Shown here: one piece after another, positions 14,520 to 36,236 of the stretch
Layout of the letters: the number at the start of each line of letters is the position of its first letter
Numbering within the stretch: the first letter of the stretch is position 1
Assembly: GCA_948907985.1 (NCBI GenBank)
Contig: CAQWMM010000004.1
Span: 319-64,318 of the forward strand
Direction of reading: 5' to 3'
From: an uncultured Bacillota bacterium
GTDB lineage: Bacteria; Bacillota; Dehalobacteriia; UBA4068; UBA4997
Length of the DNA stretch: 64,000 nucleotides
Position numbers and translations under genes: made by a program
Notes under the pieces: model-generated
Told to the model about the DNA's origin: nothing
Databases searched by the model: none
What the model saw: only the letters and a program-made list of their open reading frames with translations

Positions 14520-14682
14520 CCGCCCTCTCAGCCATCGACTCCCTAAAGGTCGCCGCTGCCAGCTCCCCCAAAAGGGGGAGCCAAGTTTAAATACTTAACT
14601 ATTAATAAACATTTTAAACCTGCCTCTCCCTTTGGGAGAGGTGTCATATCTGACCGTTAAGGAAGATATGACGGAGAGGGTA
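14520..14682. repeat. MITE-like element copy A (terminal inverted repeats GCCCTCTC...GAGAGGGT, internal palindromes), inserted between atpI and atpB
   Basis: The left end is cgCCCTCTCag and the right end gacgGAGAGGGta. Internal hairpins are gctcccccaaaagggggagc, cctctccctttgggagagg and tcatatct...agatatga. A 25-nt stretch is identical with copy B. Confidence 0.6.
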
Positions 14683-30572: not shown

Positions 30573-31436
30573 CTATATCTCAACACGCGCCCGCAGTAAA
30601 AGCTTTTGCATTTGTCTTTTACTCAAACAAATTATAAAATGCTGTGCGTCATAAACCCATTCCTGCTTATTAATTTCTGCCAGCAATGCCTGATAGGGAA
30701 CCGAACCAGCCAGCCGCCCGTCAAAAACCAGCCCCACATACCAGTTATTTAGCTGCCAATCCTGCCCGCTTATACACAAATTAGCGTCATAGGGCAACAC
30801 CGAGGCCACATCGGCCGTCAGAACATATACGCCGAATAATTCACCATCTTTTTTCTTATAGACATTAGCCTTGGCATAATATAAATCTTGTGATTGCAGC
30901 TTATGCAAATAGTTATCAAATTTTCTGGTGTCACCGCCAATCAGCCGCAAGGAATGTTCATCAAGCGAGATTGGGTTTTTTACGCCACAAATATTCAAGT
31001 TTAGGTATTTGCCGCTACAAACATCCGCCAGCATTTGCAGCAAAACGCGCTCACTGGTTTTAATATCCAGACGAATACACTCGTCAAGTCTCGCCAGCGT
31101 CATTTCCTCACCGTCACGTTCAAACACCATTGTTTGCAGCCTGTGGCATATTTTTTTTATAAAATTGTAGAAAAAATGTATATCGCGCCAGCCGCTGGGC
31201 AATGATAAACGTAGCGCTATCTCGCCAGGCTCGCTAGCAAACTCAAAACCGCGGCATATATTATTTGAATCAAAAACTACCGTATATTTACCTAAAACAT
31301 TTTCCTGCAAACAGTAGTTATTATCCATAACCCCATAACACATACCCGGCAACAGAAACGACGGCAATGCAAGCTCTTGATCTTTTCGCATACTTCTAAT
31401 TATTACATTTACCGCCATATTAAAAATTAGGCTCAT
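30573..31436 (-). CDS. hypothetical protein, uncharacterized
   Basis: 287-aa ORF with non-repetitive composition and no recognisable motifs. It is adjacent to the small-peptide cassette array. Confidence 0.55.
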   Translation of the reverse strand: MSLIFNMAVNVIIRSMRKDQELALPSFLLPGMCYGVMDNNYCLQENVLGKYTVVFDSNNICRGFEFASEPGEIALRLSLPSGWRDIHFFYNFIKKICHRLQTMVFERDGEEMTLARLDECIRLDIKTSERVLLQMLADVCSGKYLNLNICGVKNPISLDEHSLRLIGGDTRKFDNYLHKLQSQDLYYAKANVYKKKDGELFGVYVLTADVASVLPYDANLCISGQDWQLNNWYVGLVFDGRLAGSVPYQALLAEINKQEWVYDAQHFIICLSKRQMQKLLLRARVEI

Positions 31437-31533
31437 TTATCATATTTGTGTTTTTTCATATTATATCAAAAGTCCAATATTATGTCAAATAAAATTATTT
31501 TAATAAATAGACTATTCTAATTATAAACAAAAT

Positions 31534-31640
31534 AACCTCCCTTGGTTTCCCATTGGAGGTTTCTTTTACTCTTTTCTAAACAAAGGCTTGCGCCATTGTC
31601 TATCATCAAATTTTGCAAACAATCTAAACTTCTTCCCAGA
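31534..31640. repeat. conserved inter-cassette element copy 1 (bidirectional terminator-like hairpin plus ~75-nt conserved segment)
   Basis: The hairpin aacctcccttggtttcccattggaggtt is followed by tctaaacaaaggcttgcgccattgtctatcatcaaattttgcaaacaatctaaact. Two further intact copies lie at 32507-32615 and 32960-33055. Confidence 0.6.
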
Positions 31641-31733
31641 ATTTTTCCAATTTTCGCCTTTAATCTAGCTTTTTAGCACACAGTATGCTATAATATAGTT
31701 ACTCACCGCCTCAGGCAGAGAGGAGGTGATTTC

Positions 31734-31826
31734 ATGAATTTTTTTATCTCATTTGCCATCGTTGTCTTGGGTAACATAACCTCTCATTATGCTATCAAAT
31801 GGTTGGACAACATATTTAAGCGGTAG
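31734..31826 (+). CDS. Fst/Ldr-like type I toxin candidate, 30-aa hydrophobic peptide MNFFISFAIVVLGNITSHYAIKWLDNIFKR
   Basis: Extended -10 TGCTATAAT (31686-94). RBS AGGAGGTG 6 nt before the ATG. One TM helix and a charged KWLD..R tail. It is followed by a bidirectional terminator and a convergent promoter. The peptide is too short to appear in the ORF track. Confidence 0.55.
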   Translation: MNFFISFAIVVLGNITSHYAIKWLDNIFKR

Positions 31827-31867
31827 TCAGCCTGGGTTTAAGCTACCCTACTTAGTTAAAAAGAATA

Positions 31868-31938
31868 GAAGAACCTCAGCGGCAACTGGGGTTCTTCGTT
31901 TTGCAACTTGATGATTTCATGAATTTTTATTCTCTCAT
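31868..31938 (-). ncRNA. candidate antitoxin antisense RNA 1 (convergent, RNAII-like)
   Basis: Minus-strand promoter TTGACT-17-TAGAAT (plus coordinates 31969-74 and 31946-51). The transcript would end at the shared hairpin 31871-31894. It contains the complement of the toxin translation-initiation region via the direct repeat at 31909-31940. Confidence 0.45.
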
Positions 31939-32019
31939 TGTTATCATTCTACCACACTTACCTAAAAAAGTCAACCCCATTTCTTCACAAAAAAAGCACC
32001 CCCAGTTTCCCGGGGGAGC

Positions 32020-32120
32020 TTTTCGCCTTACTCAAAACCAAGCATTAAAACTCTTCTTGGCTCCCCCTTTGGGGGAGCTGTCAAATATAAGCTGAAAGCT
32101 TTTATTTGACTGAGAGGGCT
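32020..32120. repeat. MITE-like element copy C (partial), inserted into the spacer element of cassette 2
   Basis: Contains gctccccctttgggggagc and caaatataagctgaaagcttttatttg, and ends with gactGAGAGGGct. It replaces the tctaaacaaagg...ttttg part of the conserved spacer. Confidence 0.45.
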
Positions 32121-32241
32121 ATACAAACAATTTGATCCCTTCCCTAAATTTTTTCAATTTTCGTCTTTAATTTAGCTTTTTAGCACACAGTATGCTATAA
32201 TATATTTGCTAAGCGCCTCTTGGCAGAAAGGAGGTGCGAGT

Positions 32242-32331
32242 ATGAATGTATTACTTTCCATTGCCTCTGCCGTTACGGCAAATGTAATCTCCTATTATGT
32301 TTGCAAATGGCTAGACGGCAGACGGCGCTAA
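32242..32331 (+). CDS. Fst/Ldr-like type I toxin candidate, 29-aa peptide MNVLLSIASAVTANVISYYVCKWLDGRRR
   Basis: Extended -10 TGCTATAAT (32193-201). RBS AAAGGAGGTG. Hydrophobic helix plus KWLDGRRR tail. Same cassette architecture as cassette 1. Confidence 0.55.
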   Translation: MNVLLSIASAVTANVISYYVCKWLDGRRR

Positions 32332-32389
32332 GTTAGCCTGGGTGTAAGCTACCCTACTTACTTAAACAAAAAGTTCGTTAAACAGAATA

Positions 32390-32462
32390 GAAGAACCCCA
32401 GCTGCAACTGGGGTTCTTCGTTTTGCATTTGTGCAAATATGAACATATTACTTTAATTTCCT
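32390..32462 (-). ncRNA. candidate antitoxin antisense RNA 2
   Basis: Minus-strand promoter with perfect consensus TTGACA-17-TATAAT (plus coordinates 32492-97 and 32469-74). It ends at the bidirectional hairpin 32393-32416. The direct repeat 32433-32461 mirrors the toxin RBS/start. Confidence 0.5.
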
Positions 32463-32717
32463 TTTATTATTATACCACCAACCCAATCTTTTGTCAAGCA
32501 CAAAAAGAACCCCCTCTCAGTTTCCCATTGGAGGTTTATTTTACTCTTTTCTAAACAAAGGCTGGGAGCCACTGTCTATCATCAAGTTTTGCAAACAATC
32601 TAAACTCTTTCCCAAAATTTTTCCAATTTCAGCTAAACTTCTGGCTTTTTCCCATACCCTGTGCTATAATAGACTTGACCGCATTAAACATACCTGCGGC
32701 GGAGGGAGGTGGGAATT

Positions 32718-32801
32718 TTGCTAGGTTGGTTTCTCACAGTGCTCGGCACCGTAATTGCAAACGTGATTTCTGATTGCATAAGCAAATGGTTAGAACGGTG
32801 A
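32718..32801 (+). CDS. Fst/Ldr-like type I toxin candidate, 27-aa peptide (TTG start) LLGWFLTVLGTVIANVISDCISKWLER
   Basis: Extended -10 TGTGCTATAAT (32662-70). RBS GGAGGGAGGTG 6 nt before the TTG. There is no in-frame ATG, and a GTG 7 codons downstream is an alternative start. Hydrophobic helix plus KWLER tail. Confidence 0.45.
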   Translation: MLGWFLTVLGTVIANVISDCISKWLER

Positions 32802-32839
32802 TAAACAAATCTAATCGGGTCTAGGCTACCTTTAAAGCC

Positions 32840-32914
32840 AGAAAACCCCCAGGTTGCGACTGGGGGTTTTCTCTTTCTAATTTACTAAGTTTTTTCTCAC
32901 AGCTTTAACTTTCT
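32840..32914 (-). ncRNA. candidate antitoxin antisense RNA 3
   Basis: Minus-strand promoter TTGACA-17-TATAAT (plus coordinates 32944-49 and 32921-26). It ends at the hairpin 32843-32870. The direct repeat around 32876-32905 (tttttctcacag) mirrors the toxin start region. Confidence 0.5.
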
Positions 32915-33059
32915 GTATTAATTATACCACCAAGCCAATCTTTTGTCAAGCACAAAAAGAACCTCCCTCAGTTTCCCAAGGGAGGTTCTTCAAACTCATT
33001 TCTAAACAAAGGCGTGAGCCATTGTCTATCATCAAGTTTTGCAAATAATCTAATTTAGA

Positions 33060-36000
33060 TTATTTGATTATTACATTAACAGCGATGACATTCTCACCGT
33101 CTTTCAAAGTAACGTCTGCTTTCTTAATTGTACATTCAAAAACACCGCTCTTTGTCTCGTCAATATCGACTATATCCGCATCAAGCCAAGTAGCATTCAG
33201 CTTAACTTCGATATCTTTAACTTTGTCAGAACCATTGTTTTCAACAGTGAAAGTGATTGCGGAAGTCTTATCCTTAACTGTTCCTACTTCGAAATCATGG
33301 AATCTAACAGTATCGCCATCTTTGTCTTTAACTGTCAGTTTGATATCCTTCTTGAAAGTTGCTTTAGAAGAAGTCTTATCGTCTTCATCATAATCTCTGT
33401 TGGTAACATATTCGTCTACCAATACTGCACCTGCATAACCGTCATCGTTGATAAACGGAACATATGCGTAGGAGTTTCTGCTAATATCGCTCAAAGCGCC
33501 TTCTCTGTACTTACCAGTGTTAGAATCCAGAACGTAAACCACGGTATTAGCGTCTGTCATTACGCGATTTACATAAACATTATTTCCATCAATGTTTGCT
33601 TCATCGCCATAATTCTCATCATCATTATGGAACTCATCCATATAATCGATAAGTACAACAGGATCTTTGAAATAAATCCAGCCGTCATTGAAACCGCTTA
33701 CCAATTTAGCTAAATTGGTCAAGCCATCGGTCTTTTTATAAGACGCCAAAATGTCGATCTCATCACCGGACAATGTGTAAACAATGAAATGACCTGCACC
33801 AGGTTTAGCACCATTAAGAACATCACCCAGATCATAAACTTTATCGTCGCCCTCCAAAGTGATAGCGAAATCGTCTTCACCATTGCTCATAAAGCCAGCA
33901 TGATCAGCATCAGTGAACTTCCAAGCCTTGATTACACCGTAGTACTTGGTGCTGCTATGAGAAGAAGTATAAGCAAATGCTTTAATGCTATGGTTGGTAT
34001 TGCTTATATACTTGGCATAAGCCTGAACAGGCAAGAACTTATAACCATCTGTAGTCAACATTTTAACATCGTCAACTGTTTCTGGCTCAAAATCGCCGCC
34101 GCTCAGCAACGCAGAACGTGTTACTAAAGATACATCCAGTTCATTTTCATCTTCGCCAACCTCAAAAATAACTACATTCGAGGCCAAGGAAGCGGACAAT
34201 CTAGTACCAGTGCTAGTGCCATCTGCTGCTTTTACAGGCTCAGTTACCAAATAAGCGTTGTTCTTAACCTGAATCTCGGTGTTGCCACCATCCAGCATAT
34301 TAGTCCAAGCGCTACCAACTAACTTACCATCTTTATATGCGTCATTACCATTTGCATCTTCAGCATTCCAACCGCCACTAATAGTCTTAATAGCGCCGTC
34401 AGCATTCAACTTATAGGCTACCGGCTGACCCATATATTTCTGTACCATTTCAGTATTCTGCGGTTTACCTTTGCAGTCCTTTGACAAATCATAGGTTACA
34501 GTGTAACCTTCCTGCGTAAACAGGGTGATTGTGGACATGCTCTTGCCCCAGCTGCCGTTGCCGCCACCGTCAACAACTACGCCGTAAAGGGTTGTACCGG
34601 TAGAAGTTTCGTCAACGATAATAGCTGCAATGGTGTTATCCTTATTCAGCAAGTATTTAACATTGTTGTTGTAAACATCTTCAGATGTTACATCAGACTG
34701 TTCCAGATCTTCTTCGTAGAACTGCGGATTCAATGTTACAATACCATCAACATCCTCATCTGCTTTTTGATTAGGATCATTTACAAACACATATTTCTTG
34801 CCGCCGATTGTCGCTTTATGCTGATACCACTTAATATCATCACCATCTTTAAGCGTTCCAACCTCGGTACGGGTAAAGTCGCCGGATTGATCAGTTACTT
34901 TAACATACAATTCGCCTTCTTTGATCTCTCTGATAGCATCGCCAACCTGCAAATCGGAGGGAGCAACAAACTTGCCATCAGCATAAACCAAAGTATCAGC
35001 GTCGTTCATGTTAACAGTCTTGGTCTTGCTACCTACCAAACGAGCAGATGCAGTGGTCATGCTCTTAACGTAGTAAGCTTTGTCTTCAAAATCTCTGTCA
35101 GATGCTACATAGTAAACCTGATCGTCATCATTGAAGTACATAGAATAATTGGTATTCTTCCAATCTTTTTCTACATCATCGGTCAGAGTAGGATCTTTTA
35201 CAGCATTGTAGTTAGTGGAAAGAACTTTAACCTTATTATCGCCATTCTGTTCAACCTTATCGGTTACAGTCTGGATATAAGATTCAACTTCGATAAAACG
35301 AGCATACTTTCTGTCGCCCTCAGTTACATAATAAACTTTGCCCTGATGATGTTCCAAATCGAACAAACCTTCAGCATTGTGGGAAACAGCAGTGTTTTCG
35401 TCAACAATAACATTACCGTCAAAATTATCTTTGCCTACTTTGTTATCGTTGGTGTCTTTTGCCAAGTTGGCAATACGACCAGCAACGTTCCAGTTCAATG
35501 TTTTATCAGCAACATTGCGAACCTGGTTAATAGTAGCAAAGTCATCTACTTCGATAAAGGAACCCTCAAAGCTGTCGTCCAACAAAGTGATGTAGGTAGA
35601 ACCGCTCTTCGTTGTCTGTTTGTAAACAAACTCATTGGTATCTTTATCATAAGTAACAATAGCAGTATCCAATGCTTCACCCAGCATAACAACGATGTCG
35701 CCACGTTTTGCAGCAGCGCTGGCAACGATAGATACATCGTCCATAATGCCAATCTGGTTAGCTTTGGTTACATAGTTTACCGGCCAGCTGCCAGTCAGGT
35801 TGTCATTGTAGCCCAACAAACGCAGCAAAACGGTAATAGCCTCCTGGTTGGAGATGGTATCATTCGGACGGAAGTTGCCGTTGGTGTCGCCCTTGAAAAT
35901 GCCAAGGCTCTCAGCAGCATTAATCCAACCGGTATACCAGCTATTTGCACGAACATCTTTGAAAGCGCTAGCGTTGGCCTCCAACATTGTAGCGGTTTCT

Positions 36001-36236
36001 TTAGCGCCCGCAGCGGTTACGGCAATTTTAGCAAATTCAGCACGAGTAATCGTCTTATCCGGGCCGAAAGTGCCGTCTTCGTAACCTTCAATGATGCCCA
36101 ACGCAACTGCTTTCTTGATTGCGTCCTGCTCCACAACGGGGCGCTCGGAAACATCGCTGAAAGTTGCTGCGTAGGCACTGGCAGAGAATGCAAACATCAT
36201 TACAACTGCCAAAAGAACTACGAGTTTCTTTTTCAT
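33060..36236 (-). CDS. S-layer/SLH-domain surface protein with three N-terminal SLH repeats and a large C-terminal exposed region
   Basis: 1058 aa. It has a signal peptide (MKKKLVVLLAVVMMFAFSASAYA) and N-terminal SLH repeats. The central region is paralogous to 3-2660 (e.g. VVIFEVGEDENELDVSLVTRSALLSGGDFEPET). The RBS is AAGGAGGAAAAAG. Confidence 0.85.
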   Translation of the reverse strand: MKKKLVVLLAVVMMFAFSASAYAATFSDVSERPVVEQDAIKKAVALGIIEGYEDGTFGPDKTITRAEFAKIAVTAAGAKETATMLEANASAFKDVRANSWYTGWINAAESLGIFKGDTNGNFRPNDTISNQEAITVLLRLLGYNDNLTGSWPVNYVTKANQIGIMDDVSIVASAAAKRGDIVVMLGEALDTAIVTYDKDTNEFVYKQTTKSGSTYITLLDDSFEGSFIEVDDFATINQVRNVADKTLNWNVAGRIANLAKDTNDNKVGKDNFDGNVIVDENTAVSHNAEGLFDLEHHQGKVYYVTEGDRKYARFIEVESYIQTVTDKVEQNGDNKVKVLSTNYNAVKDPTLTDDVEKDWKNTNYSMYFNDDDQVYYVASDRDFEDKAYYVKSMTTASARLVGSKTKTVNMNDADTLVYADGKFVAPSDLQVGDAIREIKEGELYVKVTDQSGDFTRTEVGTLKDGDDIKWYQHKATIGGKKYVFVNDPNQKADEDVDGIVTLNPQFYEEDLEQSDVTSEDVYNNNVKYLLNKDNTIAAIIVDETSTGTTLYGVVVDGGGNGSWGKSMSTITLFTQEGYTVTYDLSKDCKGKPQNTEMVQKYMGQPVAYKLNADGAIKTISGGWNAEDANGNDAYKDGKLVGSAWTNMLDGGNTEIQVKNNAYLVTEPVKAADGTSTGTRLSASLASNVVIFEVGEDENELDVSLVTRSALLSGGDFEPETVDDVKMLTTDGYKFLPVQAYAKYISNTNHSIKAFAYTSSHSSTKYYGVIKAWKFTDADHAGFMSNGEDDFAITLEGDDKVYDLGDVLNGAKPGAGHFIVYTLSGDEIDILASYKKTDGLTNLAKLVSGFNDGWIYFKDPVVLIDYMDEFHNDDENYGDEANIDGNNVYVNRVMTDANTVVYVLDSNTGKYREGALSDISRNSYAYVPFINDDGYAGAVLVDEYVTNRDYDEDDKTSSKATFKKDIKLTVKDKDGDTVRFHDFEVGTVKDKTSAITFTVENNGSDKVKDIEVKLNATWLDADIVDIDETKSGVFECTIKKADVTLKDGENVIAVNVIIK

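What the first reader, a model, noticed from the sequence alone, without database searches (positions are those of the whole stretch)
31534..33055. Three tandem Fst/par-like type I toxin-antitoxin cassettes downstream of the S-layer gene
Each ~0.5-kb unit contains six parts. First, an extended -10 promoter (TGCTATAAT). Second, a strong RBS. Third, a 27-30 aa ORF encoding one hydrophobic helix plus a charged KWL(D/E)..R tail (MNFFISFAIVVLGNITSHYAIKWLDNIFKR, MNVLLSIASAVTANVISYYVCKWLDGRRR, LLGWFLTVLGTVIANVISDCISKWLER). Fourth, a bidirectional intrinsic terminator. Fifth, a direct repeat of the toxin translation-initiation region placed just downstream of the terminator (for example tgatttcatgaattttt at 31726 and again at 31911). 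Sixth, a convergent, near-perfect sigma-A promoter (TTGACA-17-TATAAT) reading back across that repeat into the shared terminator. This is the organisation of the Enterococcus pAD1 par locus (fst toxin RNA I and convergent RNA II antitoxin, which pair at the terminator and at repeats covering the RBS). The peptides are unannotated because they are shorter than 60 aa. The triplication, a fourth orphan spacer abutting the S-layer gene 3' end, and a MITE insertion in unit 2 are unusual.
Basis: partly seen in the sequence, partly recalled or inferred. Interest (0 to 1): 0.85.

Follow-up and report, generated by a model that had tools for sequence, protein, structure and literature searches.

The report
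Three tandem Fst/par-type toxin-antitoxin cassettes
Between a DUF4299 gene and the S-layer gene lie three tandem copies of a small membrane-toxin gene, each apparently paired with its own antisense RNA; they are unannotated members of the well-known Fst/par type I toxin-antitoxin family, so the find is sound but ordinary in kind.

Summary
Each of three ~0.5-kb units has a TGcTATAAT promoter, a GGAGG ribosome-binding site, a 27-30 aa ORF, a bidirectional terminator, a copy of the translation-initiation region (TIR) after the terminator, and a convergent near-consensus promoter.

Each predicted antisense RNA pairs with its own toxin TIR (-29 to -34 kcal/mol) and much less with the other two (-9.5 to -19).

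The peptides belong to a large unnamed clade (consensus ...ANVISYYICKWLD plus a charged tail). It has 396 clusters at 50% identity and occurs on chromosomes, on 353 plasmid records and on viral contigs. The same RNA layout holds in 29-31 of 34 relatives.

Profile comparison links the clade to annotated Fst toxins (89%, no shuffle reaches it). It links more strongly to the ORF in Rfam RF02442 (SpF66, Streptococcus; 97.8%), which carries the DXXXG motif of a published S. pneumoniae Fst clade.

Curated Pfam, NCBIfam and Rfam thresholds are not reached by the window copies. The YUNR loop motif and the PXXXG motif are absent. The "MITE" claim is only weakly supported.

Verdict: new members of a known kind. 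Transcription, repression and toxicity remain untested.

The parts
31526..31562 (.). Spacer hairpin 1 (AACCTCCC...GGAGGTT), terminator-like on both strands. It acts as an insulator at the left end of unit 1.
   Evidence: Repeat family D3 (4 copies) and D2; sequence read directly.
31686..31694 (+). Unit 1 toxin promoter, an extended -10 box (TGCTATAAT) with a weak -35 (TAGCTT).
   Evidence: The same box sits 35-45 nt upstream of the start codon in nearly all 34 relatives.
31698..31907 (+). Predicted unit 1 toxin mRNA (about 210 nt). It contains an anti-SD/SD stem-loop (31704-31712 pairing with 31720-28) and a 5' end that pairs with the stop-codon region.
   Evidence: RF02442 match over the full model length, 23.1 bits, below threshold. 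Folds.
31734..31826 (+). Unit 1 toxin ORF, MNFFISFAIVVLGNITSHYAIKWLDNIFKR (30 aa).
   Evidence: family HMM E = 9e-15.
31868..31897 (.). Unit 1 shared bidirectional terminator.
   Evidence: I1; covarying stem.
31912..31939 (-). Unit 1 copy of the TIR. Read on the minus strand, it forms the 5' tail of the antisense RNA.
   Evidence: D9; duplex -33.4 kcal/mol, z = -5.9.
31946..31974 (-). Unit 1 antisense promoter, TTGACT-17-TAGAAT with TG. The predicted antisense RNA spans about 31939 to 31856.
31986..32140 (.). Unit 2 spacer. It holds a homologous hairpin (31999-32016) plus about 100 nt of divergent sequence with extra hairpins (32062-32081 and 32083-32113).
32193..32201 (+). Unit 2 toxin promoter, extended -10 box TGCTATAAT.
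32197..32432 (+). Predicted unit 2 toxin mRNA. Its SD hairpin pairs 32214-32222 with 32230-32238.
   Evidence: RF02442 match over the full model length, 24.6 bits, E = 0.002, below threshold. Folds.
32242..32331 (+). Unit 2 toxin ORF, MNVLLSIASAVTANVISYYVCKWLDGRRR (29 aa). It contains an internal 11-bp hairpin at 32278-32304.
   Evidence: (E = 1e-18).
32390..32419 (.). Unit 2 shared bidirectional terminator.
   Evidence: Flagged on both strands.
32431..32462 (-). Unit 2 TIR copy, the 5' tail of the antisense RNA.
   Evidence: D7; -33.8 kcal/mol, z = -7.2.
32469..32497 (-). Unit 2 antisense promoter, a perfect TTGACA-17-TATAAT with TG.
32504..32537 (.). Spacer hairpin of unit 3.
   Evidence: D2, D3.
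32662..32670 (+). Unit 3 toxin promoter, extended -10 box TGCTATAAT.
32718..32801 (+). Unit 3 toxin ORF with a TTG start, (M)LGWFLTVLGTVIANVISDCISKWLER (27 aa). It is the most divergent copy.
   Evidence: E = 1.6e-12.
32840..32872 (.). Unit 3 shared terminator.
   Evidence: (I5).
32881..32910 (-). Unit 3 TIR copy, the 5' tail of the antisense RNA. It pairs with 32716-32748, which includes the TTG start codon.
   Evidence: (-29.2 kcal/mol, z = -5.5).
32921..32949 (-). Unit 3 antisense promoter, a perfect TTGACA-17-TATAAT with TG.
32955..33053 (-). Orphan spacer. The hairpin at 32991-32956 followed by TTTTTG is the probable terminator of the SLH S-layer gene (33060-36236, minus strand).
   Evidence: (D2, I7).

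Best explanation
These are three tandem, independently regulated type I toxin-antitoxin cassettes of the par/Fst kind.

**Toxin mRNA.** In each unit an extended -10 promoter makes a toxin mRNA of about 205-220 nt. The mRNA is predicted to hold itself translationally inert in two ways. A 5' stem-loop pairs an anti-SD (CGCCTC) with the GGAGG site. The extreme 5' end also pairs with the stop-codon region.

**Antisense RNA.** A stronger, near-consensus convergent promoter makes an antisense RNA of about 85 nt.
- Its 3' half is the complement of the shared terminator.
- Its 5' tail is the complement of the unit's own SD-proximal region, start codon and first codons, because a copy of that region sits just beyond the terminator.
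- Pairing at both sites would block ribosome loading on the toxin mRNA.

**Specificity.** Each unit has its own repeat sequence, so each antisense RNA should neutralise only its own toxin.

**Peptide.** The product is a single-helix membrane peptide with the Fst/Ldr signature (helix, conserved Trp, charged tail). It is presumed to damage the membrane or cell envelope when the antisense RNA falls away.

**Shown here:** the sequence elements, the cognate-specific complementarity, conservation and covariation across relatives, purifying selection on the ORF, and similarity to Fst.

**Inferred:** that both RNAs are made, that pairing represses translation, and that the peptides are toxic.
For: **The elements are present at the stated coordinates**.

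**Antisense-to-TIR pairing is cognate-specific in the window**.
- Cognate duplexes are -33.4, -33.8 and -29.2 kcal/mol; non-cognate pairs are -9.5 to -18.8.
- 0 of 500 dinucleotide shuffles reach any cognate value.

**The layout holds across 34 non-redundant units from 20 genomic and plasmid loci**.
- 31 have a TIR repeat just after the terminator.
- In 29 the cognate repeat ranks first against all other loci.
- 29 have a strong convergent promoter.

**mRNA self-structure.**
- The SD is paired in 24 of 28 leaders, against 56% in shuffles; mean z of the leader folding energy (MFE) = -2.35.
- The 5'-end/stop-region helix is cognate-specific: 0 of 20000 permutations reach the observed summed energy.
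- The terminator stems covary.

**The ORF is under selection as a coding sequence.**
- 396 clusters at 50% identity match at E <= 1e-3.
- K and W are invariant.
- The conserved Leu uses 6 different codons, and pN/pS is about 0.19.

**Relation to Fst.**
- hhalign against 8 NCBI-annotated Fst toxins gives 89% probability, E = 2e-6, score 26.8. None of 300 shuffled controls reaches it; the maximum is 21.0.
- Annotated par loci give the same repeat, terminator and promoter layout with the same script.

**Relation to Rfam RF02442 (SpF66).**
- It matches relatives at 119, 70.8 and 42.9 bits (gathering score 42).
- It matches window units 2 and 1 over the full model length at 24.6 and 23.1 bits.
- Its consensus encodes ...ADVIAGIILYFVCKWLDGKE, which matches the family profile at 97.8%.

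**Literature.**
- The par organisation and the Fst/Ldr signature are described in Weaver 2020 (PMC7472228).
- S. pneumoniae Fst-B was shown to have an antisense RNA of 65-75 nt and to be toxic in E. coli (Fozo 2010, PMC2887945).
Against: - There are no expression or toxicity data for this organism.
- No curated model reaches its cut-off. NF033608 (Fst) scores 11.5 bits against 26. NF047374 scores <= 17 against 60. PF13940 (Ldr) reaches only E = 0.011. No Pfam Fst model appears at all.
- RF02442 is below its gathering score for units 1 and 2 and is absent for unit 3.
- The P/D/S/T-XXX-G motif, whose P and G are essential for Fst toxicity, is missing from the three window peptides.
- The YUNR loop motif that starts RNA I/RNA II pairing in par is absent from all three terminator loops (CGGCAA, CUGCAA, GUUGCGA).
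- Unit 3 is degenerate in places. It has a TTG start, KWLE instead of KWLD, its repeat ranks second, and its SD lies outside the predicted duplex.
- Some conservation of the peptide core may reflect an RNA hairpin rather than the protein.
Confidence: 0.85

Rival explanations
1. The cassettes encode small membrane peptides under antisense control that are not toxins. They would be accessory or regulatory small proteins of the cell envelope, kept next to the S-layer gene for a functional reason.
For: Arrays of the same family lie at the 3' end of an SLH S-layer gene in three related genomes (window, L002, L003). The PXXXG motif, whose P and G are essential for Fst toxicity, is absent. Toxicity has not been tested here.
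Against: The same cassettes occur with no S-layer neighbour on 353 plasmid records, often beside rep and mob genes, and on viral contigs. That distribution fits an addiction or defence module. The regulatory RNA layout is identical to that of par. A Streptococcus relative of the clade is probably the Fst-B shown to be toxic.
Confidence: 0.08
2. The units are non-coding sRNA genes, as the Rfam label 'SpF66 sRNA' suggests, and the short ORF is incidental to conserved RNA structure.
For: RF02442 is filed as an sRNA. The conserved peptide core ANVISYYIC is encoded by a hairpin that is more stable than synonymous recodings (-9.5 against -5.1 kcal/mol; 49 of 86 cores significant).
Against: The ORF, its SD and its length are kept in 396 clusters. 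The invariant Leu uses six codons and pN/pS is about 0.19. The TM-Trp-charged-tail design has no RNA-level explanation. The antisense RNA targets precisely the SD and start codon.
Confidence: 0.03
3. The repeats are only duplicated 3'-UTR and terminator sequence of the S-layer gene, and the cassettes are decaying remnants with no present function.
For: The spacer next to the S-layer stop codon (32955-33053) is repeated inside the array. Unit 3 is the most divergent copy. Unit 2 carries an insertion in its spacer.
Against: All three ORFs are intact with SD sites, promoters and terminators. Each unit keeps its own matched TIR and antisense pair although the units differ from one another by 40-70% in that segment. 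That pattern requires continued selection. Array copies in L002 and L003 show the same property.
Confidence: 0.04

Closest known systems
par locus of Enterococcus faecalis plasmid pAD1 and its homologues (Fst toxin mRNA RNA I, antitoxin RNA II)
   Same: These features are shared:
- convergent promoters;
- a shared bidirectional terminator;
- a TIR repeat transcribed in antisense;
- a 5' stem-loop over the SD;
- a 5'-end/post-stop helix;
- a toxin mRNA of about 210 nt;
- a toxin of about 30 aa built as TM helix, Trp-Leu-Asp, then a charged tail.

Supporting calls: 71, 74, 79, 80. The profile match is 89%.
   Different: - There is no PXXXG motif; a conserved Asn sits where the Gly aligns.
- There is no YUNR motif in the terminator loops.
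- The predicted antisense RNA is about 85 nt rather than 65-75 nt.
- Curated Fst HMMs do not reach threshold.
- The locus is chromosomal and in a tandem array.
Streptococcus pneumoniae tandem Fst-A/Fst-B loci (Fozo 2010) and Rfam RF02442 SpF66_sRNA
   Same: - The C-terminal core is the same (F/Y-V/I-C-K-W-L-D), with 97.8% profile probability.
- RF02442 aligns to window units 1 and 2 end to end and passes its threshold on plasmid relatives.
- The copies are arranged in tandem.
   Different: - The Streptococcus peptide has a DXXXG motif and a helix four residues longer.
- The window copies score only 23-25 bits against a gathering score of 42.
- The identity of SpF66 with Fst-A/B is my inference from the motif. 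I could not check it against the S. pneumoniae genome.
sprA1/SprA1AS (PepA1) of Staphylococcus aureus
   Same: It belongs to the Fst/Ldr family, is chromosomal, and its antitoxin is made in large excess. That matches the consensus antisense promoters and weak -35 toxin promoters seen here.
   Different: PepA1 has a PXXXGC motif. No sequence-level comparison was run here.
Clostridioides difficile type I toxins (CD2517.1-RCd8 and others; NCBIfam NF047374)
   Same: They come from a clostridial host, are short TM toxins with charged tails, and have convergent overlapping antisense RNAs. Ten of 54 family members give weak matches, the best at E = 6e-4.
   Different: The scores are 15-17 bits against a cut-off of 60 and cover only the hydrophobic helix. 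The C. difficile toxins are 34-53 aa with Lys-rich tails and no KWLD motif.

Membership tests
par-type type I TA locus (RNA organisation; Weaver 2020, Fig. 1) | Convergent promoters for the toxin mRNA and the antisense RNA. | tested here: met
   Each unit has TGCTATAAT on the + strand and TTGACA/TTGACT-17-TATAAT/TAGAAT with TG on the minus strand. 29 of 34 relatives have the convergent promoter. This is sequence evidence only.
par-type type I TA locus (RNA organisation; Weaver 2020, Fig. 1) | A bidirectional intrinsic terminator shared by both RNAs. | tested here: met
   Hairpins at 31868-97, 32390-419 and 32840-72. The stems covary in 15 aligned units.
par-type type I TA locus (RNA organisation; Weaver 2020, Fig. 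1) | Direct repeats (DRa/DRb) over the SD and start codon, repeated beyond the terminator and read in antisense. | tested here: met
   Present in all 3 units. Cognate duplexes are -29 to -34 kcal/mol with z = -5.5 to -7.2. 31 of 34 relatives have the repeat, and it is often split into two blocks by an indel. Annotated Fst loci give the same result.
par-type type I TA locus (RNA organisation; Weaver 2020, Fig. 1) | A 5' stem-loop that sequesters the ribosome-binding site. | tested here: met
   The SD is at least 4/5 paired in 24 of 28 leaders, including all 3 window units, against 56% in shuffles.
par-type type I TA locus (RNA organisation; Weaver 2020, Fig. 1) | A 5' upstream helix that involves the extreme 5' end. 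| tested here: inconclusive
   The 5' end pairs with the stop-codon region in a cognate-specific way (0 of 20000 permutations). The same complementarity is visible in annotated Fst loci. I could not confirm from the literature that this helix is the published 5'-UH.
par-type type I TA locus (RNA organisation; Weaver 2020, Fig. 1) | A YUNR U-turn motif in the terminator loop of the toxin RNA. | tested here: not met
   The window loops are CGGCAA, CUGCAA and GUUGCGA, and none contains YUNR. The annotated Fst loci L025 and L026 have UUCG and CUCG.
par-type type I TA locus (RNA organisation; Weaver 2020, Fig. 1) | Both RNAs are made, the antisense RNA represses translation, and the peptide is toxic. 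| not testable with these tools
   This needs RNA mapping and expression experiments.
Fst/Ldr toxin superfamily | A conserved Trp between a hydrophobic TM helix and a charged C-terminus. | tested here: met
   K-W is invariant and L-D nearly so in 54 aligned members. All 3 window peptides have KWL(D/E) followed by R/K.
Fst/Ldr toxin superfamily | A P/D/S/T-XXX-G(C) motif in the helix, present in the majority of members. | tested here: not met
   It is absent from the three window peptides, which have V-x-[AG]-N instead. Some relatives have S-V-x-A-G, and the RF02442 ORF has D-V-I-A-G.
Fst/Ldr toxin superfamily | A curated HMM cut-off is reached (NCBIfam NF033608 Fst; Pfam Fst or Ldr models). 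| tested here: not met
   The window peptides give no hit. Among 54 members, NF033608 matches 6 at 11.5 bits against a cut-off of 26, PF13940 matches 4 at E >= 0.011, and no Pfam Fst model is listed.
Fst/Ldr toxin superfamily | Profile-level similarity to annotated Fst toxins. | tested here: met
   hhalign gives 89.4% probability, E = 2e-6, over 32 columns. 0 of 150 column shuffles and 0 of 150 segment-wise shuffles reach the score.
Rfam RF02442 SpF66_sRNA | The gathering score of 42 bits is reached. | tested here: not met
   Window unit 2 scores 24.6 bits, unit 1 scores 23.1 bits, and unit 3 gives nothing. Relatives L021 (119 bits), L023 (70.8) and L008 (42.9) pass.
C. difficile type I toxin (NCBIfam NF047374) | The curated cut-off of 60 bits is reached. 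| tested here: not met
   The best members score 15-17 bits, over the helix only. The window peptides give no hit.

The most novel reading that the evidence does not exclude
The 'CKWLD' peptides form a large, essentially unannotated branch of the Fst/Ldr superfamily. It has at least 396 clusters and spans Bacillota and Eggerthellaceae chromosomes, hundreds of Enterococcus plasmids and phage-like contigs. The PXXXG motif that Fst needs for toxicity has been replaced in this branch. Its most conserved peptide segment (ANVISYYIC) doubles as a selected hairpin inside the mRNA, which would add an unstudied layer of translational or stability control. The conserved placement of the arrays convergent to a highly expressed S-layer gene might exploit read-through transcription as an extra source of antisense RNA.
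Probability: 0.2. Interest if true: 0.55.

Novelty: new member of a known kind. Interest (0 to 1): 0.35.

Why it matters
**For this window.** The finding explains a 1.5-kb 'empty' intergenic region as three regulated genes that gene callers miss.

**More generally.** Pfam, NCBIfam and PGAP annotation all fail to recognise a widespread Fst-related clade. None of the plasmid hits listed (30 of 353 records shown), including the RefSeq records inspected, carries an annotated feature under the ORF. Rfam files its mRNA as a plain sRNA. An HMM and a covariance model built from the alignments made here would allow these toxins to be annotated on plasmids, prophages and gut-anaerobe chromosomes.

**As a test set.** The paralogous arrays of 3, 4 and 6 copies, each copy with a private antisense 'address', are a natural set for studying how type I antitoxin specificity evolves after duplication.

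Tried and rejected
- **The search for homologous proteins.** A 41-aa extended ORF found no word-sharing candidate. The exhaustive representative search was used instead.
- **Names and literature.** Cluster look-up of 10 family members returned no source names. A full-text search for 'CKWLD' found nothing relevant.
- **Solved structures.** A profile search of PDB sequences found no Fst or PepA1 match, only a chance LRR hit.
- **Spurious Rfam hits.** Sub-threshold hits to PyrR, BSnc120, ncr1015 and Phe_leader rest on the terminator hairpins and were dismissed.
- **Long-window RNAduplex.** Using 200-nt downstream windows was too noisy. It was replaced by local alignment of the repeats.
- **Minus-strand ORFs in the spacers.** The short ORFs (MQNLMIDNG...) are frame-broken in unit 3 and include the terminator, so they were rejected as genes.
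- **RNAalifold.** It did not return the 5' stem-loop or the 5'-3' helix as consensus, because the purine-rich SD pairs in shifted registers in different units. Per-sequence tests were used instead.
- **Viral collection.** The search for related loci rejected the alignment and the peptide. A degenerate DNA pattern was used instead.
- **Fozo 2010.** The supplements and figure were not available as text, so the C. bolteae 'Fst-like' sequence could not be compared.
Full report
**What is in the sequence.** The region 31526-33053 holds three tandem units of 460-515 nt plus a fourth, partial spacer. Each unit carries the following parts.
- An extended -10 promoter TGCTATAAT, at 31686-94, 32193-201 and 32662-70.
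- A leader of about 40 nt.
- A GGAGG site 7-8 nt before the start codon.
- A short ORF: 31734-31826, 32242-32331 or 32718-32801 (the last with a TTG start).
- A GC-rich hairpin with U-rich flanks on both strands: 31868-97, 32390-419 or 32840-72.
- A copy of the unit's own translation-initiation region (TIR).
- A minus-strand promoter that is perfect TTGACA-17-TATAAT with an upstream TG in units 2 and 3, and TTGACT-17-TAGAAT in unit 1.

The window comes from an uncultured Bacillota MAG (GCA_948746715.1). No gene is called between the SLH-domain S-layer gene and a DUF4299 gene in that assembly.

**The antisense logic is more than chance.** I took the predicted antisense 5' tails (from the transcription start to the terminator) and the predicted toxin 5' regions.
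- Each antisense RNA pairs with its own toxin at -33.4, -33.8 and -29.2 kcal/mol.
- It pairs with the other two toxins at only -9.5 to -18.8 kcal/mol.
- None of 500 dinucleotide shuffles per unit reaches the cognate value; z = -5.5 to -7.2.
- The duplexes cover the SD and ATG in units 1 and 2, and the TTG start in unit 3.

The three units therefore differ in the repeat sequence, yet each keeps its two copies matched. That is the signature of selection on RNA-RNA pairing.

**The peptide belongs to a large, unnamed family.**
- A profile of the three paralogues, searched against 1.84 billion representatives, found 396 clusters at E <= 1e-3.
- Full-length members are 27-36 aa, with consensus M..l.sfl.sV.ANV(I/V)S(Y/H)YICKWLD plus a charged tail. 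K and W are invariant.
- The sources give these proteins no name, and the motif does not appear in the searchable literature.
- Pfam and NCBIfam give no hit for the window peptides. Other members give only sub-threshold hints: NF047374 at 15-17 bits against 60, NF033608 (Fst) at 11.5 against 26, and PF13940 (Ldr) at E = 0.011.
- The ORF is under purifying selection. The invariant Leu uses six different codons, and a crude pN/pS over the core is 0.19.

**The architecture is conserved in relatives.**
- A genome scan returned 19 loci. They come from Bacillota MAGs, Peptococcaceae, Selenomonadales, Lachnospiraceae, Anaerococcus, Peptoanaerobacter and Eggerthellaceae.
- A tblastn search found 353 plasmid records, 320 of them Enterococcus, plus S. 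suis, Aerococcus, L. salivarius, M. gnavus and C. perfringens. None of the listed hits has an annotated feature under the ORF.
- Over 34 non-redundant units, 31 have a TIR repeat 45-130 nt after the stop codon. In 29 the cognate repeat outranks all foreign TIRs. 29 have a strong convergent promoter just beyond the repeat.
- The repeat is often split into two blocks by an indel, like DRa and DRb of par.
- The SD is sequestered by an upstream anti-SD in 24 of 28 leaders, against 56% in shuffles.
- The extreme 5' end pairs with the stop-codon region in a locus-specific way. Among 15 dissimilar units, 0 of 20000 permutations reach the observed summed energy.

**Relation to Fst/par.**
- Eight toxins that NCBI annotates as 'Fst family' were fetched from plasmids. 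They read ...IAPIFVGLVIELVSHWLDEEDDN, with the same length and the same W-L-D position.
- Profile-profile comparison with the new family gives 89% probability, E = 2e-6, over 32 columns. None of 150 column-shuffled or 150 segment-wise shuffled Fst alignments reaches that score.
- The same scripts applied to those annotated par loci return the same layout: TG-extended -10, an anti-SD/SD hairpin, a TIR repeat from -10 to +19 copied at stop+77 to +109, a convergent promoter, and 5'-end/post-stop complementarity.
- Weaver's review defines the par organisation and the Fst/Ldr signature. The window meets all of it except two points: the YUNR loop motif and the P/D/S/T-XXX-G motif, which the majority of the toxins carry.

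**An Rfam link.**
- RF02442 (SpF66_sRNA, 'Streptococcus sRNA') matches the toxin mRNA of the E. faecalis plasmid member at 119 bits. It matches the S. suis plasmid member at 70.8 bits and a Clostridia MAG copy at 42.9 bits; the gathering score is 42.
- It aligns end to end with window unit 2 (32197-32432; 24.6 bits) and unit 1 (31698-31907; 23.1 bits). Both are below threshold.
- The model consensus encodes MSLILELVLTIIADVIAGIILYFVCKWLDGKE. That peptide matches the family profile at 97.8%, E = 7e-13, and carries the DXXXG motif.
- Weaver assigns the DXXXG motif to one S. pneumoniae Fst clade. Fozo et al. showed that S. pneumoniae Fst-B has an antisense RNA of 65-75 nt and is toxic in E. coli, and that Fst-like sequences occur in Clostridiales.
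- I infer, but could not verify, that SpF66 is that locus. If so, the clade already has an experimentally supported member.

**Mechanism proposed.** The model is as for par.
- The toxin mRNA is made from an extended -10 promoter with a poor -35 (TAGCTT in unit 1).
- It folds so that the SD is hidden.
- The antisense RNA comes from a consensus promoter, so it is probably in excess, as in the chromosomal parEF0409 and sprA1 systems.
- It pairs through the complementary terminator region and then through the TIR repeat, which blocks initiation.
- Loss of the antisense RNA would allow synthesis of a membrane-active peptide.
- The private repeat sequences predict no cross-protection between the three units, as reported for par paralogues.
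- All of this beyond the sequence and covariation evidence is inference.

**Genomic context.**
- Tandem arrays are typical of the clade: four copies in L002, six in L003 and three in L008.
- In L002 and L003 the array again lies at the 3' end of an SLH S-layer gene, convergent to it. The position is therefore conserved while the copy number changes (3, 4 and 6).
- The spacer hairpin next to the S-layer stop codon (32991-32956) is a good terminator for that gene, and it was duplicated along with the units.
- Family members are also common on IMG/VR viral contigs. A degenerate YICKWLD pattern hit more than 120 stretches, and 81 of the 120 fetched loci carry a family ORF.

**Not confirmed.**
- The 'MITE' in unit 2 is an insert of about 100 nt. 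Only its terminal blocks (CTTGGCTCCCCCTTTGGGGGAGCTG and CTGAGAGGGC) recur, once, at about 14530-14590.
- The proposed Pfam HMM test does not identify the peptides.

**Verdict.** The cassettes are new, unannotated members of a known kind of system, in a clade that curated models miss. The interest is moderate: useful for annotation and for studying antitoxin specificity, but not surprising to a specialist.

Noticed in passing
window 32278-32304 (unit 2 ORF); family-wide: The most conserved peptide segment, ANVISYYIC, is encoded by a near-perfect 11-bp hairpin (GCAAATGTAAT-CTCCT-ATTAYRTTTGC). Over 86 distinct cores the mean folding energy is -9.5 kcal/mol, against -5.1 for synonymous recodings, and 49 of 86 are significant. 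RNAalifold shows G-U/C-G and U-A/A-U swaps that track the Gly...Ile and Ala...Cys peptide subtypes. In the window only unit 2 has a strong version.
   Followed up: partly
window 31460-31488 (minus strand): A fourth perfect TTGACA-17-TATAAT promoter with TG sits just left of the first spacer hairpin, where the antisense promoter of a 'unit 0' would be. It points into the DUF4299 gene (30573-31436), with a leader of only about 17 nt. The closest relative, L002, has no DUF4299 gene; there GlnRS directly abuts the array.
   Followed up: partly
window 32056-32125 and about 14530-14590 (minus strand): A short intergenic element has the conserved ends CTTGGCTCCCCCTTT(T)GGGGGAGCTG and CTGAGAGGGC around a variable core of about 30 nt. 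It occurs twice in the 64 kb, and one copy is the insert in the unit 2 spacer.
   Followed up: partly
L002 1629-3093; L003 1609-4137; both next to an SLH gene on the minus strand: Arrays of 4 and 6 cassettes occupy the same position, convergent to the 3' end of an S-layer gene, in two related genomes. This may be a conserved hotspot or a functional link.
   Followed up: partly
L021 (E. faecalis pE035, 1738-1827); L022, L023, L024: Complete cassettes of this clade sit beside rep, mob or pre genes on plasmids of Enterococcus, M. gnavus, S. suis and C. perfringens, and they are not annotated in RefSeq. In all, 353 plasmid records match, 226 of them conjugative.
   Followed up: partly
Terminator loops of the window units and relatives: The loops share a Y-N-G-C-R/N-A pattern (CGGCAA, CUGCAA, UUGCGA, CUGCCA; the RF02442 consensus is CGGCCA) in place of the YUNR (UUCG, CUCG) of the annotated Fst loci. 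This may be an alternative loop-loop recognition motif.
   Followed up: no
3' UTR directly after the stop codons (for example window 31829-31850 and 32335-32356): A conserved TAGCCT/AGCCTGGG...AAGCTACCC segment follows the stop codon in most relatives. It also occurs in one annotated Fst locus (L030, L. garvieae pGL2), which looks intermediate between the two clades.
   Followed up: no
L008 2133-2206; L024 890-991: A tRNA gene lies immediately upstream of the L008 array. A THF riboswitch lies about 500 nt from the C. perfringens plasmid cassette.
   Followed up: no
window 32384-32485 (minus strand): The unit 2 antisense region gives a weak match (25.7 bits, far below the gathering score of 440) to Rfam RF02637. 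By its name, EF0408_EF0409, that model appears to cover the E. faecalis chromosomal parEF0409 region. Only the ends of the model align.
   Followed up: no
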